Positions 2,861-64,000 of a DNA stretch of 64,000 nucleotides are shown here, one piece after another (the first letter of the stretch is position 1; each line of letters starts with the position of its first letter). The notes under the pieces were generated by a model. It did no database searches and was not told the origin of the DNA. It saw only the letters and a program-made list of their open reading frames with translations. The DNA is taken from contig NC_081387.1 in assembly GCF_030684315.1 (NCBI RefSeq), forward strand, positions 25,476,647 through 25,540,646, in the 5' to 3' direction. The translations under genes were made by a program, and so were the position numbers. Source of the DNA: Stegostoma tigrinum. Lineage: Eukaryota.

Positions 2861-2865
2861 TCCAG

Positions 2866-3051
2866 GTTAACCTAGACTCTCACACTAGGGAAGTGACCTC
2901 CACTAACGTGCTAAGCCCAACTCACTCGACCTTTGACCTGGCCCAGAAGCGGATCTTTGGCCTGATGGAGAAGGACTCCTACCCTCGCTTCCTGCGCTCG
3001 CAATTCTACCTGGACTTGTCGAACCCCAAGAAGCTGAACGGGGTGATGTAG
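2866..3051 (+). CDS. RGS3-like protein, last coding exon
   Basis: Phase-0 acceptor; VNLDSHTRE...[39 protein letters not shown], very close to the RGS3 C-terminus as I recall it ([23 protein letters not shown]). Ortholog versus ohnolog is unresolved. Confidence 0.93.
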
Positions 3052-4966: not shown

Positions 4967-7900
4967 TTAGAACAGAAGAACATAAGAGCTAGGAGCAGGA
5001 GTAGGCCATCTGGCCCCTCGAGCCTGCCTCACCATTTAATAAGGTCATGGCTGGTCTTTTTGAGACTCAGCTCCACTCACCTACCCACTCAACCTTAATT
5101 CCTTTACTGTTCAAAAACTTATCTAGCCTTGTCTTAAACACATTCAGCGAGGTATCTCAACCGCTTCACTGGCAAGGAATTCCACAGATTTACAATTCTT
5201 TGGGTGAAGAAGTACCTCCTGACCTCAACCCTATATCAGCTTCCCTTTATTTTGAGGGGATGCCCTCTAGTCCTACTTTCACCAGCTAGCAGAAACAACC
5301 TCCCTGTCTTATCTATTCCCTTTATATCTTATATGTTTCTATAAGATCTCCCCTCATTCTTCTGAATTCCAATGAGTATAATCCCAGTCTACTCGACTCT
5401 CCTCATAATCCAACCCTCTCAACTCTGAAATCAACTGAATGAATCTCCTCTGCAGCCCCTCCAGTGCTAGTACGTCTCTGCTCAAGTAAGGAGACCAAAA
5501 CTGCACACAGTACTCCAGGTGTGGCCTCACCAGGACCCTATACAGCTGCAGCATAGCCTCCCTGTTTTTAAACTCCATTCCTCCAGCAATGGCAGACAAA
5601 ATTCCATTTGCCTTTTTAATTGCCTGCTGCACCTGCAATCCTAATTTTAGCGATTCATGCACAAAGACACCCAAGTCCCTCTGCACAGCAGCATGCTGCA
5701 AATTTTGACCATTTAAAACATAGTCCATTTTGTTGTTTTTCCCACCAGAATGGATGACCTCACACTTATCAACATTGTACTCCATTTGCCAGAACTTTGC
5801 CCACTCACTTAGATTATTTATACCCCTCTGCAGACTTTCAGTGTCTTCTGCATACTTTGCTCTACCACCCACCTTAGTGTCATCAGCAAATTTTGACAGA
5901 CCACTCTTCGTACCCAATTCCAAATCATCTATATAAATTGTAAACAATTACAGTCCCAACAATGACCCCTGAGGCACACGACTAGCCACTGACCGCCAAC
6001 CAGAAAAATACCCATTTACCCCAACTCTTTGCTTTCTACTAATCAACCAATCCTCTATATCCATGCCAATACATTACCTGTAATACTGTGCACCTTTATC
6101 TTATGCAGCAGCCTTTAGTGTGGCACCTTGTCCAATGTCATCTGGAAATCCACATAAACCACTTCAACAGGTTCTCCATTGTCCGCCATGCAAGTAATGT
6201 CCTCAAAGAATTCCACCAAATTGGTTAACCATGACCTCCCCTTCATGAACCCATGCCGGGTGTTCCCAATGGAACAATTTATGTCCAGATGTCTTGCTAT
6301 TTCTTCCTTAATGATAGATTTACACATTTTCCTCACTACCGAAGTTAAGCTAACTGGCCTATTGCCACCTGCTTTTTGTCTACCTCCTTTTTAAAAAAGT
6401 AGCGTCACATTAGCTGTTTTCCAATCTGCAGGAACTACCCTAGAGTCTAGTCAATTTTGGTAAATAATTACTGATGCAGTTGCTATTTCTCCCATCACCT
6501 CTTTTATTCCTGGGGTGCATTTCATCAGGGCCAGGAGACTTGTCTACCTTTAGCCCCATTAACTTGCCCAGCATTGCCTCCTTAGAGATAATGATAGTTT
6601 CTAGGTCCTCACCTGCTATAACCTTCTTGCCATTAGTTTTCAGCATGTTATTTGTGTCTTCCACTGTGAAGACGGACACACAATAACAGTTTAATGTCTC
6701 AGCTATTTCCTCATTCCCAGTTGTTAAATTGGCCTTCTCATCCTCTAAAGGACCAATGTTTACCTTCGCTACTATTTTAAGATTTACATATTTATAGAAA
6801 CTTTTGCTGCTGGATTTTATATTCTGAGCTGGTTTACTCTCATAATCTTTCTTATTTTTCTTTGTAACTTTTTTCTTTGTGGCTTTCTGTTGATCTTTAA
6901 AGATTTCCCAGTCTACTAGTTTCACACTACTCTTTGCTTTTTTTGTAAGTGTTTTTTTTCAATCTGATACTTTCCTTTATTTACTTAGACATCCATGGCT
7001 GGTTGTCTGTTTTTCTACTGTTCTTCCTTGTCACTGGAATATACTTCTGCTGAGCAATGTGAAAAATCGTTTTGAAAGTCCTCAACTGACCCACCATAAA
7101 GTTTTTGCTGCCATTCTACCTTAGCTAACTCCTCTCCCATTCCTTCATAGTCTCCTTTGTTTAAGCACAGCATAGGTATTGGATTTAACCTTCTCATGCT
7201 CCATCTGTATTTTAAATTCGATCATACTGTGATCGCTCCTTCCGATAAGATCCCTAACTGTGAGATCATTAATTATTCCTGTCTCATTACACAGGACTAG
7301 ATCTATGATAGCTTGCTCCCTCGTAGGTTCCATTACATGTTGTTCAAGGAAATTATCGCAGTTGCATTCTATGAACCCTCCCCAAGGCTGCCATGACTGA
7401 CCTGGTTTGACCAATTGATATGTAGATTAAAATCCTCGATGATAATTGCTGTACCAATTTTTACATGCATTAGCTATTTCTATGTTTATCGCCTGTCCCA
7501 CCTCGGTGTCATTATTTGGTGGCCTATAGACCACATCTATCAGTGACTTCTTCTCCCTGCTATTCCTAATTTCCACCCAAATGGATTCAATGTTTTGTTC
7601 AGTAGAACCTGTACCATCTCTCACTGCCACCCTGATATCATCCTTAAAAATCAGAGCAACACCACCTCCCTTACCTTCCTGTCTGTCCTTCTGAATACCC
7701 TGGATATTTAACTCCCAGTCATGGCCATCCTGTAACCATGATTATGTAATGGCCACTAAGTCAGACCCATTTGCCATTATTTGCACCGTCAACTCATCCA
7801 CCTTGTTTCGAATACTCTGAGCATTCAGATAAAGTGTCCTTATGCCACTTTTTGCACCTTCTTTTTGGGTCCTATTACTTTCATTACTAATGGTTCTTGA

Positions 7901-16419: not shown

Positions 16420-18396
16420 TTAGGGAGGCAGAGACAGGTTGGACTGGTTTTGGGATGCAGTGGGTGGGGGGGAAGATCTGGGCTGGTTGTGTGGTGCAGT
16501 GGGGGGAGGGGATGAACTGGGCTGGTTTGGGGATGCGGTGGGGGAAGGGGAGATTTTGAAACTGGTGAAGTCCACATTGATACCATATGGCTGCAGGGTT
16601 CCCAGGCGGAAAATGAGTTGCTGTTCCTGCAACCTTCGGGTGGCATCATTGTGGCAGTGCAGGAGGCCCATGATGGACATGTCATCAAGAGAATGGGAGG
16701 GGGAGTGGAAATGGTTTGCGACTGGGAGGTGCAGTTGTTTTTTGCGAACTGAGCGGAGGTGTTCTGCAAAGCGGTCCCCAAGCCTCCGCTTGGTTTCCCC
16801 AATGTAGAGGAAGCCGCACCGGGTACAGTGGATGCAGTATACCACATTGGCAGATGTGCAGGTGAACCTCTGCTTGATGTGGAATGTCATCTTGGGGCCT
16901 GGGATGGGGGTGAGGGAGGAGGTGTGGGGACAAGTGTAGCATTTCCTGCGGTTGCAGGGGAAGGTGCCGGGTGTGGTGGGGTTGGAGGGCAGTGTGGAGC
17001 GAACAAGGGAGTCACGGAGAGAGTGGTCTCTCCGGAAAGCAGACAGGGGAGGGGATGGAAAAATGTCTTGGGTGGTGGGGTCGGATTGTAAATGGCGGAA
17101 GTGTCGGAGGATAATGCGTTGTATCCGGAGGTTGGTAGGGTGGTGTGTGAGAACGAGGGGGATCCTCTTGGAGCGGTTGTGGCGGGGGCGGGGTGTGAGG
17201 GATGTGTCGCGGGAAATGTGGGAGACGCGGTCAAGGGCGTTCTCGATCACCGTGGGGGGAAAGTTGCGGTCCTTAAAGAACTTGGACATCTGGGATGTGC
17301 GGGAGTGGAATGTCTTATCGTGGGAGCAGATGCGGCGGAGGCGGAGGAATTGGGAATAGGGGATGGAATTTTTGCAGGAGGGTGGGTGGGAGGAGGTGTA
17401 TTCTAGGTAGCTGTGGGAGTCGGTGGGCTTGAAATGGACATCAGTTACAAGCTGGTTGCCTGAGATGGAGACTGAGAGGTCCAGGAAGGTGAGGGATGTG
17501 CTGGAGATGGCCCAGGTGAACTGAAGGTTGGGGTGGAAGGTGTTGGTGAAGTGGATGAACTGTTTGAGCTCCTCTGGGGAGCAAGAGGCGGCGCCGATAC
17601 AGTCATCAATGTACCGGAGGAAGAGGTGGGGTTTGGGGCCTGTGTAGGTGCGGAAGAGGGACTGTTCCACGTAACCTACAAAGAGGCAGGCATAGCTGGG
17701 GCCCATGCGGGTGCCCATGGCCACCCCCTTAGTCTGTAGGAAGTGGGAGGAGTCAAAAGAGAAGTTGTTGAGTGTGAGGACGAGTTCAGCTAGGCGGATG
17801 AGAGTGTCGGTGGAGGGGGCCTGGTCGGGCCTGCGGGACAGGAAGAAGCGGAGGGCCTTGAGGCCATCTCCATGCGGAATGCAGGTGTACAGGGACTGGA
17901 CGTCCATGGTGAATATGAGGTGTTGGGGGCCAGGGAATTGGAAGTCCTGGAGGAGGTGGAGGGCGTGGGTGGTGTCACGGACGTAGGTGGGGAGTTCCTG
18001 GACCAAAGGGGAGAAAATGGAGTCCAGATAGGTGGAGATGAGTTCGGTGGGGCAGGAGCAGGCTGAGACGATGGGTCGACCAGGGCAGGCAGGTTTGTGG
18101 ATTTTGGGAAGGAGATAGAAACGGGCCGTGCGGGGTTGGGGAACAATGAGGTTGGAGGCTGTGGGTGGGAGGTCCCCTGAGGTGATGAGGTCGTGAATGG
18201 TGTTGGAGATGATGGTTTGGTGCTCGGGTGTGGGGTCATGATCGAGGAGGCGGTAGGAGGTGGTGTCGGAGAGTTGGCGTCTGGCCTCGGCGATGTAGAG
18301 GTCCGTGCGCCATACTACCACTGCGCCACCCTTGTCTGCGGGTTTGATGGTGAGGTTGGGGTTGGAGCGGAGGGAGCGGAGGGCTGCCCGTTCTGT
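16420..18396 (-). CDS. Penelope-like retroelement protein (reverse transcriptase + GIY-YIG endonuclease), 5'-truncated but uninterrupted
   Basis: Part of the 731-aa ORF: ADKGG, MDVQSLYT, GVAMGTRMGPSYA, RYIDD, Cys linker CNRRKCYTC, and VVYCIHCTRCGFLYIGET...R...EH. The ORF portion above ~18396 is chimeric read-through. Confidence 0.93.
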   Translation of the reverse strand, partial: TERAALRSLRSNPNLTIKPADKGGAVVVWRTDLYIAEARRQLSDTTSYRLLDHDPTPEHQTIISNTIHDLITSGDLPPTASNLIVPQPRTARFYLLPKIHKPACPGRPIVSACSCPTELISTYLDSIFSPLVQELPTYVRDTTHALHLLQDFQFPGPQHLIFTMDVQSLYTCIPHGDGLKALRFFLSRRPDQAPSTDTLIRLAELVLTLNNFSFDSSHFLQTKGVAMGTRMGPSYACLFVGYVEQSLFRTYTGPKPHLFLRYIDDCIGAASCSPEELKQFIHFTNTFHPNLQFTWAISSTSLTFLDLSVSISGNQLVTDVHFKPTDSHSYLEYTSSHPPSCKNSIPYSQFLRLRRICSHDKTFHSRTSQMSKFFKDRNFPPTVIENALDRVSHISRDTSLTPRPRHNRSKRIPLVLTHHPTNLRIQRIILRHFRHLQSDPTTQDIFPSPPLSAFRRDHSLRDSLVRSTLPSNPTTPGTFPCNRRKCYTCPHTSSLTPIPGPKMTFHIKQRFTCTSANVVYCIHCTRCGFLYIGETKRRLGDRFAEHLRSVRKKQLHLPVANHFHSPSHSLDDMSIMGLLHCHNDATRRLQEQQLIFRLGTLQPYGINVDFTSFKISPSPTASPNQPSSSPPPTAPHNQPRSSPPPTASQNQSNLSLPP

Positions 18397-19135
18397 GGTT
18401 TTACTCTGCAGAAACCAGATACTGAAAGCAATGTGGATTTCTCCATGAAGTGATGTAGAAAGTCCCTCCACATCCAAACGCCAATGTGGTATACTGCATC
18501 CACTGTACCCGGTGTGGCTTCCTCTACATTGGGGAAACCAAGCGGAGGCTTGGAGACCGCTTTGCAGAACACCTCCGCTCAGTTCGCAACAAACAACTGC
18601 ACCTCCCAGTCGCAAACCATTTTAACTCCCCCTCCCATTCTTTAGATGACATGTCCATTATGGCCCTCCTGCAGTGCCACAATGATGCCACCCGAAGGTT
18701 GCAGGAACAGCAACTCATATTCCACCTGGGAACCCTGCAGCCTAATGGTATCAATGTGGACTTCACCAGTTTCAAAATCTCCCCTTCCCCCACCGCATCC
18801 CCAAACCAGCCCAGTTCATCCCCTCCCCCCACTGCACCACACAACCAGCCCAGCTCTTCCCCTCCACCCACTGCATCCCAAAACCAGTCCAACCTGTCTC
18901 TGCCTCCGTAACCGGTTCTTCCTCTCACCCATCCCTTCCTCCCATCCCAAGCCGCACCCCCATCTACCTACTAACCTCATCCCACCTCCTTGACCTGTCC
19001 GTCTTCCCTGGACTGACCTATCCCCTCCCTACCTCCCCACCTATACTCTCTCCACCTATCTTCTTTTCTCTCCATCTTCGGTCCGCCTCCCCCTCTCTCC
19101 CTATTTATTCCAGAACCCTCACCCCATCCCCCTCT

Positions 19136-55399: not shown

Positions 55400-55722
55400 T
55401 TACCTTATCTGAAACCGTTCCATTAAAGGGTTGGTGAGAGACTCGTGCCTGACCTCACATAAATACGTCTGACCGGGGTCCACATCCACAAAGGCAATGG
55501 TCATCTGACTGACTGTACTGTAGGTCCCACTCACGTCCCTCACCACTGGGAAGTTGGTCACGCTGCCCGGAACTTGCAAATCCCTCTCTGTTCTCCAGTT
55601 CACATAGATCCCGGCGGGATAGAACCCCGAAACAAAACATGCCAACGTCACAGCTTGTGGCCGACGGGAGTCACGTGACTGAACCTTGATGGGGGTTATC
55701 GTCGGTTGGAGGAAAATAAATT
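55400..55722 (-). CDS. Non-rearranging Ig-like gene (UrIg-like), constant domain 3 (C1-set)
   Basis: Acceptor taacAG/ phase 1; EFIFLQPTITPI...VTLACFVSGFYPAGIYVNW...GTYSTVSQM...TYLCEVRHESL...FQIR*, with C1-set CxVSGFYP, W and YxCxVxH motifs. Confidence 0.9.
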
Positions 55723-57131: not shown

Positions 57132-57452
57132 CCCGGGTTTTATTGATGGTTTGAATGATGCTGTCTGGGACTGACATGTGTTGACTCTCACACGTATATT
57201 TTGTACCCCGGTTCCACATTTGATCGGACGTGGTCAGTTCACTCTGGGAAGAGTAGGTGCCATTGATATTGAGAATTGGTGGGTAGGTCTTGATGTTGTC
57301 GACCACTGGATTGCCATTGATGAACCAATGGAAAGAGATCTCTGCTGGGTAGAAGCCAGTTGCTAGGCAGACCAGGGTTGCTTTTTCCATTGTCACGAGC
57401 TCTTCTAAAGTCGGTGACAGGAGATACAGCTTTGGCTCCATGGGGTACCGCT
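57132..57452 (-). CDS. Non-rearranging Ig-like gene (UrIg-like), constant domain 2 (C1-set)
   Basis: acacAG/ ... G/GTaaga, 321 nt, phase 1-1; PKLYLLSPTLEEL...ATLVCLATGFYPAEISFHW...NGTYSSQSEL...WNRGTKYTCESQH. Confidence 0.93.
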
Positions 57453-59706: not shown

Positions 59707-60024
59707 CAGTGTTACTTATGTGTTTGATGATGGGTGAAGGCAGTGCCCCATGTGATACTTGGCAGCTGATAATAGATCCTTTGATCCACTGGGATGTATC
59801 GATCACCAGCTTACTGATCGCTGTGTAGGTGCCATTGTCTCCCAAAAGTGAGGCAGAATGCGAGACCCCTCTGTAGACCTGCTCACCATCAACACGCCAG
59901 GTAAATGAGAGGTCGTCCGGGTAGAAGCTTTCTGCTGCGCAGAGCAGTGAGATGTTCTTCTGGAGAAAGACATCCTCAGGGTGTGGGTTTTGGAAATAAA
60001 CCAACGGAGGAGATGCTGAAGGAG
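59707..60024 (-). CDS. Non-rearranging Ig-like gene (UrIg-like), constant domain 1 (C1-set)
   Basis: tttcAG/ ... G/GTaagt, 318 nt, phase 1-1; APSASPPLVYF...ISLLCAAESFYPDDLSFTW...NGTYTAISKL...QWIKGSIISCQVSHGAL. Confidence 0.93.
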
Positions 60025-61759: not shown

Positions 61760-62410
61760 AAAAAGACGTTTAGAACGCTTGCCTTCATTTCTCAGTCCTT
61801 TGAGTAAAGCAGTTGGGAAGTCATGATAAGGTAGTACAGGACATTGGTGAGGCCTGCTCTGGAAAACTGTCCAGTTCTGGTTGCCCAGTTATAGGAAAGT
61901 TATTATTAAACTGGAGAGGGTTCAGAAGACATTTACCAGAACGTTTCGGGGTATGGGACATTTGAGGTAGAAAGAAAGGCTGAACAGGCTGCAACTTTTT
62001 TTACTGGAGCATAGGAGGTTGAGAGGCAACCTTATCAAAGTTATACAAAACAATGAGAGGTATACATAGAATTAGTGGTCTTTTACATAGAATCCTTTCC
62101 CTAGGATGCGGGATTTCAAGACAAGGGGACAAATTTTTAAAGTGAGAGGAGAGAGATTTAAAAAAAGACATGAAAAGCAAATTTTTTTACACTGAAGGTG
62201 GTTTGCATGTGGAATAAACTTCCTGAGGAAGTGGTGGATGTGGGTACAATTACAACATTTTAAACACCTTTGGATAAGGACATGAATAGGAAAGGTTTGG
62301 AGGGATATGAGCCAGGAGCAGGCAGGTGGGACTAGTTTTGTTTGGAATTATGGTCAGCATGAACTGGTTGGACTGAAGGATCTGTTTCTGTGCGGTATGG
62401 CTTGATTGAC
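61760..62410 (+). mobile_element. CR1-clade LINE 3' fragment in the V-C1 intron
   Basis: Same family as 26655-27390. Confidence 0.7.
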
Positions 62411-62642
62411 TTTGAATGTTGGCCAGGAGACCAAGACAATCCCATTTACAGGTAGAAGGGGCTTAAGGACAAGTCTGCAGCAACAGGATAGCAAGGCTCA
62501 ACTCATAAACGTTTGAAGGCTGGCGCCCTTGATCAGGCAGTGTCACTTTCCACTCCCACCTTGACATTGTCCCAGTGAATCACGTGATGAAGTTCTGTCA
62601 GACAGCAAGGCATAAGAAGAGACAGGGTCAAAAATGACCTAC

Positions 62643-63020
62643 CTGCTTTAACAGTGAGTGTGACTCCACATCCACTCCAGTCTGTGCTGAATGGGAAGTA
62701 AGTGTTAGAGCTGCCACAGTAATATCTGGCTGAATCTTCTTGTCGGAGACCTTTTATTGTCAGTGAGAACTTCTTGCTGGTCCAGTCCTTTGAGCCAATA
62801 AAACGATCGCTTACCACGGATGGGTAAAGAGCAGCACTCGATCCCGGCATCCAGTAAAGAATCCACGAGATCATGAGATCTCCCGGCTTGGCGGATCCCC
62901 AGATGAGGTAATAATTATCCATGGTCCTGGAGGTGAAACAATTCAACGTCACCGTTTCATTTTCCCAGCGACTCAGAGATATGGGCGAGATATAGAGAGT
63001 GTCATCAGCTATCAAAGGGC
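62643..63020 (-). CDS. Non-rearranging Ig-like gene (UrIg-like), single-exon VJ-type variable domain
   Basis: ttgcAG/ ... G/GTaggt, 378 nt, phase 1-1; TVTLNC, LIW, SDRFIGSKD...FSLTIKGLRQEDSARYYC, then a CDR3-like loop and the G strand SGCGVTLTV in the same exon. Leader exon not found in the window. Confidence 0.93.
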
Positions 63021-64000
63021 CTGCAAGGAAAAAGACCACATTCATGAGTCAGCTCACCGTCAACCAGACTTAAAGTCATTGGCAAAGACGCCAAAGAAAT
63101 GCCAAATTGTTTGTTTTGACACGGCGAGTTATAGAATTAAGAAGGTGTTGCATTGAAATAAAGTGCATTTCACAAACATCAGACTTCTCCAAATACTTGA
63201 TAGCAATGGGCTTCTATCCACACTGAACTGAAACCCTACTCTGTAAAAAAATTCTCCTGAACATATTTCAGGAACACATGGCTCTGTCTGCTCTTCATGC
63301 TGGTACTATCCCTGTCTATATTTGGATAGTTCCGTTTCAGCTGCTTTAAAATTCTGTCATTTCCTTGCAGATTTGTCCGTCCGTACCTTTCCCATTGCCA
63401 GTTCCCTGTAGAATACACCACGCAATGTAATGATTCTTCTGTCATCCCCTAACTCTAACCAAACATATTCTCTCCTTGATGCTTCTGTCCACACTGTCAT
63501 GTTCAGATTTGCCTCCCTTTCTGCTTTCATTCCTTCCCATTTTTCTTAGAACAGCTTGTATCCAGGAGTATTCAACACCCAGTCCTGCCCTTCCCGGATT
63601 CAGGTCCTCACTGTTGTCCCACCATCAGGTTTCAAAGGGACTAACTGTCCCAGTAATCTGGGAATCATATTTATCACACACTATTCATGCACAATAAACT
63701 GAATTTGGTTTATTCCACTCCCGTTTACTGTGATCTCAATCCTGTTTATTATCATTTCCTCCTTTAATATTACCTGTCTTTGCCAAATCTCTGTGTATCT
63801 TTCATCTCCAGTATGACCTCCTTGTTCGCCCAACGCTGCCATGTTTGCTTAACATCTACTTGATATGCAAGCTGCCTCACAAGGATCTCAATGCTGTTTT
63901 TCTCAGAAGCAAACTGTCAGGCCTGAGCACACCCTAACAACCAATGAATCCAAAACCTCCCTCCTGCACCAACCCTCCACCTGTGCTCTGAGTTGTTCCA

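What the first reader, a model, noticed from the sequence alone, without database searches (positions are those of the whole stretch)
62643..62720. Atypical J-like strand (DWSGCGVTLTV) carries the only unpaired cysteine of the four domains
Seen: the diglycine bulge GxG is kept, but the usual F/W before it is Ser (Trp sits one residue earlier) and x is Cys. Each of the four domains otherwise has just its canonical Cys pair. The C-strand region (WGSAKPGDLMISW) also departs from the residues that pack VH on VL. Inference: the V does not pair with a light chain in the usual way, and this Cys could form an inter-chain disulfide giving a covalent homodimer.
Basis: partly seen in the sequence, partly recalled or inferred. 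Interest (0 to 1): 0.7.

Follow-up and report, generated by a model that had tools for sequence, protein, structure and literature searches.

The report
Disulfide-linking cysteine of shark UrIg
This is the single spare cysteine of UrIg, a published shark antibody-like protein whose gene does not rearrange; it likely bonds two identical chains together, as the matching cysteine does in the solved structure of the sister protein UrIg2, so the feature is real but largely known, although the same motif led to two further, apparently undescribed sister genes.

Summary
Observation confirmed (minus strand). The gene is UrIg/tsIgH: a single-exon VJ plus three C1-set exons, single-copy, on the contig that carries the MHC class I matches. 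Cys counts per domain are 3/2/2/2. The extra G-strand Cys (62670-62668) is invariant in 6 of 6 UrIg proteins and in every UrIg2 and related V found, and absent from 26 of 26 other VJ domains. [quoted passage not shown] In the UrIg2 crystal (9DMX) the aligned Cys114 forms a symmetric V-V bond in a non-Fv dimer packed through the A and G strands. The Ser that replaces the usual F/W aligns with UrIg2 Cys112, a second inter-chain bond. One correction: GxG is kept in sequence, but a bulge is not shown; UrIg2 lacks it and my model test was uninformative. Side finding: two head-to-head, membrane-type UrIg-family genes on contig C15 (V 33-50% identical to UrIg and UrIg2) have orthologues in four other sharks and were not found in the papers I could search.

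The parts
62643..63020 (-). UrIg fused V-J exon (V-set domain, no rearrangement)
   Evidence: AG/GT ends; Pfam V-set; 98% to whale shark P0002, 90-91% to Triakis tsIgH P0003; no RSS-like site in 62401-63300
62650..62682 (-). J-like G strand DWSGCGVTLTV
   Evidence: STDWSGCGVTL invariant in 6 of 6 UrIg
62668..62670 (-). Cys117, the only non-canonical Cys; likely symmetric inter-chain disulfide; aligns with UrIg2 Cys114
62674..62676 (-). Ser115 (AGT) at the J F/W position; Cys in UrIg2 and in the C15 genes (UrIg2 Cys112, second inter-chain bond)
62716..62718 (-). Canonical F-strand Cys101 (pairs with B-strand Cys27 at 62940-62938)
62863..62901 (-). C strand / CC' region WGSAKPGDLMISW; WGSAKP invariant in 6 of 6 UrIg, W-G-(Y/S)-V-(P/T) in most relatives
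62977..63006 (-). A strand DDTLYISPIS (mature N terminus), invariant in 6 of 6; predicted part of the V-V interface by analogy with UrIg2
59707..60024 (-). C1 exon (C1-set, two Cys only; lacks the UrIg2 Cys182 inter-chain Cys)
57132..57452 (-). C2 exon (C1-set, two Cys)
   Evidence: C1-to-C2 join seen as a loose end in run X5
55400..55722 (-). C3 exon ending in TAA; no transmembrane tail in the five orthologous proteins

Best explanation
This cysteine is the only spare one in shark UrIg, and it likely forms a symmetric disulfide with the same cysteine of a second UrIg chain, which would join the two V domains edge-on through their A and G strands instead of by antibody-type heavy-light packing. 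Shown here: the gene is UrIg, the Cys is unique and invariant, and it aligns with UrIg2 Cys114. Shown in print: UrIg is a secreted, liver-made, disulfide-linked homodimer, and UrIg2 Cys114 and Cys112 make V-V bonds. Inferred: with one spare Cys per chain, the UrIg bond must be Cys117-Cys117'. The Ser at the F/W position is the place of the second UrIg2 bond, so UrIg has one stitch where its relatives have two. The constant domains likely pair without covalent bonds, C2-C3 as in an Fc. More speculative (about 0.4): the face that packs VH on VL in antibodies is left free, and its invariant WGSAKP patch helps bind a fixed ligand in the extracellular matrix.
For: Cys counts 3/2/2/2. Cys117 invariant across the 15 aligned family sequences: 6 of 6 UrIg, 11 of 11 UrIg2 records (isoforms included), 4 of 4 further paralogue proteins, 2 of 2 C15 exons, against 0 of 26 other VJ domains. 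Alignment to 9DMX, DWSGCG over DFCSCG, with a numbering offset of 5 read from fig. S3, maps Cys117 to 114 and Ser115 to 112. PMC12227049 passages: inter-chain bonds A112-B112 and A114-B114, contacts largely between A and G strands, UrIg a disulfide-linked homodimer recombinantly and in vivo. The first 10 mature residues and STDWSGCGVTL are fully invariant in 6 UrIg V domains, against 76 of 121 positions overall (the sequences are related). The V model matches 9DMX with the lowest rmsd of the listed rows (1.6-1.7 A).
Against: No structure of UrIg itself came up in the PDB searches. UrIg and UrIg2 V domains are only 31-39% identical, and UrIg keeps G-x-G where nurse shark UrIg2 has S-C-G, so the geometry may differ. 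By Z or E-value 9DMX is only tied with ordinary antibody V domains (ranks 5 and 9). The primary UrIg paper was not held, so its evidence is seen only through PMC12227049. The ligand step has no direct support.
Confidence: 0.87

Rival explanations
1. Cys117-Cys117' forms, but the UrIg V domains keep a true G-strand bulge and pair differently from UrIg2, either loosely tethered by one bond or closer to an Fv.
For: G-C-G is invariant in 6 of 6 UrIg; the C' Trp and a Leu-like residue are kept; there is one bond instead of three; PMC12227049 says AlphaFold modelling of UrIg resembled IgG.
Against: In an Fv the two G-strand x positions face the partner's C-C' region, not each other (recalled from disulfide-stabilised Fv design, not tested). 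A- and G-strand invariance fits the UrIg2 interface. The residues after the core Trp are non-Fv in both paralogues.
Confidence: 0.08
2. In tissue the Cys bonds mainly to another protein (a matrix protein, a light chain, UrIg2 or a C15 paralogue) or stays a reactive thiol, and the homodimer is a side product.
For: UrIg is found in extracellular matrix, and UrIg2 is also expressed in liver. Kondo 2023 notes a Cys between VH and CH1 in IgM and IgW too. All paralogues carry the same Cys.
Against: Homodimers are reported both recombinantly and in vivo. C1 has no extra Cys of the kind that bonds a light chain. The protein is made by liver, not lymphocytes.
Confidence: 0.05

Closest known systems
UrIg (Flajnik et al. 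2023, seen only through PMC12227049 and PMC10751288) = tsIgH (Kondo et al. 2023, PMC10331284)
   Same: This is the orthologue. V is 90-91% identical to tsIgH and, compared by eye, differs at one residue from nurse shark UrIg V in fig. S2. Same VJ-C1-C2-C3 exon plan, same single extra Cys, MHC chromosome.
   Different: Nothing of note. Kondo placed the Cys in a 'hinge/linker'; it lies in the J-like G strand inside the V exon.
UrIg2 (PMC12227049; PDB 9DMX)
   Same: Fused VJ; Cys at x forming a V-V bond; W-G-x-x-P C strand; best PDB sequence match for the four-domain protein (E 2.5e-78).
   Different: UrIg2 has C-x-C (two V-V bonds), a C1-C1 bond, extra C domains and a transmembrane region, and lies in the IgH/TCR complex. 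V identity is 31-39%.
Rearranging IgH/IgL/TCR J segments (F/W-G-x-G; motif recalled)
   Same: Position and G-x-G-x-x-L-x-V spacing.
   Different: Ser for F/W, Cys at x (0 of 26 in other VJ domains), no recombination signal found.

Membership tests
UrIg | V and J joined in one exon, no recombination signals | tested here: met
   One open exon with AG/GT ends; RSS scan of 62401-63300 found none; spliced straight to C1 in 4 of 4 runs
UrIg | Three C1-set domains, stop after C3, no transmembrane region | tested here: met
   orthologues end at the same place. Alternative downstream exons were not searched by reads.
UrIg | High V identity to described UrIg/tsIgH | tested here: met
   71-98% to five orthologues; 90% to the Triakis protein; near-identical to fig. 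S2 nurse shark UrIg
UrIg | Single copy, MHC-linked | tested here: met
   One DNA match and one close protein match in G000; 36 of 36 MHC_I matches and one of four PBX genes are on the same contig C44. Class III position was not mapped.
UrIg | One non-canonical Cys, in the V G strand | tested here: met
   described in PMC10331284
UrIg | Disulfide-linked homodimer | not testable with these tools
   Stated for UrIg in PMC12227049
UrIg | Liver expression | not testable with these tools
   Runs carry no tissue label; published for orthologues
UrIg2 | C-x-C G strand, C1 inter-chain Cys, transmembrane region, V in the UrIg2 clade | tested here: not met
   S-G-C, two Cys in C1, stop after C3, outside the 100/99 UrIg2 clade
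Canonical antibody/TCR J strand | F/W before G-x-G | tested here: not met
   Ser in 6 of 6 UrIg
Canonical antibody/TCR J strand | Beta-bulge in the G strand | tested here: inconclusive
   Continuous strand in the model, but also in the control model of an FGGG light-chain V

The most novel reading that the evidence does not exclude
The G-strand Cys is the signature of a larger UrIg family than the two published genes. Two more intact, head-to-head, membrane-type members (VJ-C1-C3-TM and VJ-C1-C2-C3-TM) lie on a third chromosome, G000:C15 at 76.96-76.98 Mb, about 35 kb from a cytochrome P450 exon, with orthologues in four other shark species. All known family V domains would then be disulfide-stitched A/G-strand dimers. 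The published two-paralogue scheme for the origin of antigen receptors would need revising, with more candidates for the gene that the RAG transposon invaded and a W/F-C-G-C-G strand as a possible forerunner of the F/W-G-x-G J motif.
Probability: 0.55. Interest if true: 0.68.

Novelty: already known. Interest (0 to 1): 0.32.

Why it matters
For the finding itself, little is new: the Cys and the covalent dimer are in print. What this work adds is the residue mapping (Cys117 = UrIg2 Cys114; Ser115 = UrIg2 Cys112), which predicts one V-V bond and a non-Fv geometry for UrIg and can be tested with one mutant. The UrIg family is the proposed relic of the V gene from which antibodies and T-cell receptors arose. 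Two more conserved members on another chromosome would bear directly on that reconstruction and could supply membrane partners for secreted UrIg.

Tried and rejected
Homodimer prediction of the V domain: no answer (0.03 against a mark of 0.32; the alignment was not used, no controls folded); not evidence either way. Bulge test by secondary structure: the UrIg model shows an unbroken G strand, but so does a canonical FGGG control, at low confidence, so the test was dropped. The primary UrIg paper was not held under three ids; its text and supplements may already map or mutate this Cys. Expression: no RNA holder listed. The MHC class II beta search gave nothing in G000 or the controls, uninformative. 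A UrIg2 V query found no close copy in G000, only the window gene and the two C15 genes at 33-35%; this does not show absence. Direction of the Ser/Cys change cannot be read from the V tree, since one change explains either direction; AGT is one base from TGT. Naming the C15 neighbourhood: 150 of 2103 open frames from 220 kb were scanned and gave one P450 exon and retrotransposon frames; its only PDB match under the cut-off was cyanobacterial CYP120; the Atlas did not hold it. The chromosome's human counterpart is unresolved. Earlier scan notes: three look-ups empty, and one gave 8 notes on other VJ genes that do not bear on this. Rejected: germline-joined IgH or IgL (V 33-36% to a joined light-chain exon, separate clade) and chance or read-through artefact. 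The C3 boundary was off by one base and is corrected.

Full report
Observation. The finding lies on the minus strand at the 3' end of a 378-base exon (63020-62643) with AG and GT ends. It encodes a V-set domain with its J-like strand built in. Three C1-set exons follow at 60024-59707, 57452-57132 and 55722-55403, then TAA. A leader exon lies about 0.9 kb beyond the window at G000:C44:25541581 and has no Cys. The domains hold 3, 2, 2 and 2 Cys, so Cys117 (codon 62670-62668) is the only extra one. Contigs of 4 of 4 runs laid join 62643 to 60024 across a GT-AG intron; three of them match both exons without a difference. Against VH domains, Ser115 takes the place of the J Trp, and Trp114 sits one earlier.

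Identity. The V is 98% identical to a whale shark protein (P0002), 94% to a bamboo shark protein (P0006), 90-91% to the Triakis heavy-chain-like protein (P0003), 74% to an unnamed record (P0004) and 71% to a stingray model (P0005). P0003 carries the name and species of the tsIgH of Kondo 2023, which PMC12227049 cites as UrIg. By eye it differs at one residue from the nurse shark UrIg V in fig. S2 of PMC12227049. The gene is single-copy. It shares contig C44 with 36 of 36 MHC class I matches (1.1-11.1 Mb) and a PBX gene (19.0 Mb); the gene is at 25.5 Mb. No RSS-like site was found. It is UrIg.

What is in print. Kondo 2023 (PMC10331284; abstract passage and Results section read) reports only one extra Cys, between VH and CH1, and liver-only expression. 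Flajnik 2025 (PMC12227049; passages, parts 1-2 of 3 of Results, Discussion and part 1 of 2 of the supplementary PDF read) calls UrIg a secreted disulfide-linked homodimer without light chains, seen recombinantly and in vivo. It gives the UrIg2 crystal: inter-chain bonds 112-112, 114-114 and 182-182, V-V contacts largely between A and G strands, unlike an Fv, and no bulge in the G strand. PMC10751288 (passages) places UrIg in the MHC class III region. The 2023 UrIg paper itself was not held.

Mapping the Cys. The whale shark orthologue's best PDB match is 9DMX, with DWSGCG aligned over DFCSCG. The construct begins with five leader residues, so chain positions 117, 119 and 187 are the paper's 112, 114 and 182. 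Cys117 of the window is therefore UrIg2 Cys114, and Ser115 is UrIg2 Cys112. The Cys is present in 6 of 6 UrIg proteins, 11 of 11 UrIg2 records (isoforms included), 4 of 4 further relatives and 2 of 2 related exons in this genome, and in 0 of 26 other VJ domains matched by pattern in 17 of 139 other proteins. The position two before it is Ser in all UrIg and Cys in all the others. The A strand (10 of 10 residues) and STDWSGCGVTL (11 of 11) are invariant in six UrIg V domains, against 76 of 121 overall. A confident V model (pLDDT 87.6) matches 9DMX with the lowest rmsd listed (1.6-1.7 A), but ties with antibody V domains by score.

Mechanism. A covalent homodimer with one spare Cys per chain implies a Cys117-Cys117' bond (inference). 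By analogy with UrIg2, the V domains likely meet edge-on through A and G strands, held by one bond rather than two, and the constant domains likely pair without covalent bonds. The face used for VH-VL packing would be free. Its WGSAKP stretch is invariant and lacks the Val-Arg-Gln of VH, although the downstream Trp is kept; a role in binding a fixed matrix ligand is speculation. Against: no UrIg structure was found, V identity to UrIg2 is 31-39%, and UrIg keeps both glycines.

Where the motif led. The protein search of G000 returned two more fused VJ exons on C15 with W-C-x-C strands. Gene A (minus; L009, L008) has VJ, two C1-set exons and a hydrophobic exon. Gene B (plus; L010, L011) has VJ, three C1-set exons and a hydrophobic exon. 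The matched exons show no stops. Orthologous V domains occur in whale shark (89% to A), Mustelus (61%), Scyliorhinus torazame (61%) and Chiloscyllium (64% to B). Whale shark and S. torazame also have true UrIg2, so these are extra paralogues. In a 32-row V tree they form a group (88/87) beside UrIg2 (90/95), and the whole family stands apart from 15 other V domains (93/77); none of these three forks reaches the tool's starred level, and the outgroup is mostly mammalian. Their C domains sort by position with those of UrIg and UrIg2, without IgH outgroups. C15 is not one of the four PBX contigs. Searches for 'UrIg3' (0 papers), 'UrIg' with 'shark', 'UrIg' as a whole word and two multi-term searches listed only PMC12227049 and PMC10751288 as relevant (20 of 31 and 25 of 357 results listed). 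In the parts of PMC12227049 that I read, only two paralogues are described. Subscription papers were not searched, and transcripts of these genes were not tested.

Verdict. Interest 0.32, raised by the side finding.

Noticed in passing
G000:C15:76.957-76.985 Mb (L008:6829-6969, L009:1492-9234 minus; L010:7158-8334, L011:495-4277 plus): Two head-to-head UrIg-family genes with fused VJ (W-C-x-C strand), two or three C1-set exons and a predicted transmembrane exon; distinct from UrIg and UrIg2; orthologues P0021, P0025, P0033, P0067; not found in the papers searched. Their last C exons are nearly identical to each other.
   Followed up: partly
L025:3386-3757 (G000:C15:76.923 Mb, plus): Last exon of a cytochrome P450 about 35 kb from gene A; best PDB match CYP120. 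It resembles the CYP26 family (recalled, not tested) and could serve as a synteny marker.
   Followed up: partly
window 59707-60024 and 57132-57452, minus: Both C1 and C2 carry an NGT glycosylation site in the D-E loop; the C1 site aligns with the glycosylated Asn region of IgG CH2 (role recalled).
   Followed up: no
window about 2863-3048, plus: Last exon of an RGS-domain gene (Pfam RGS, E 8.9e-12), about 52 kb from the UrIg stop and convergent with it, on the MHC contig.
   Followed up: no
P0005 (Hypanus sabinus model): UrIg fused behind a RING/B-box TRIM N terminus; probably a gene-model fusion with an upstream TRIM gene.
   Followed up: no
G000 whole genome: No close UrIg2 V found in this assembly; may be an assembly gap.
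   Followed up: partly
window 16423-18621 and 5357-6958, minus: Retrotransposon frames, one open for 733 codons with a weak reverse transcriptase match.
   Followed up: no
L013:7637-7996 and L014:827-1132 (G000:C60): Germline-joined light-chain VJ exon with a canonical FGGG strand and a C exon 3 kb downstream; used as a control.
   Followed up: no
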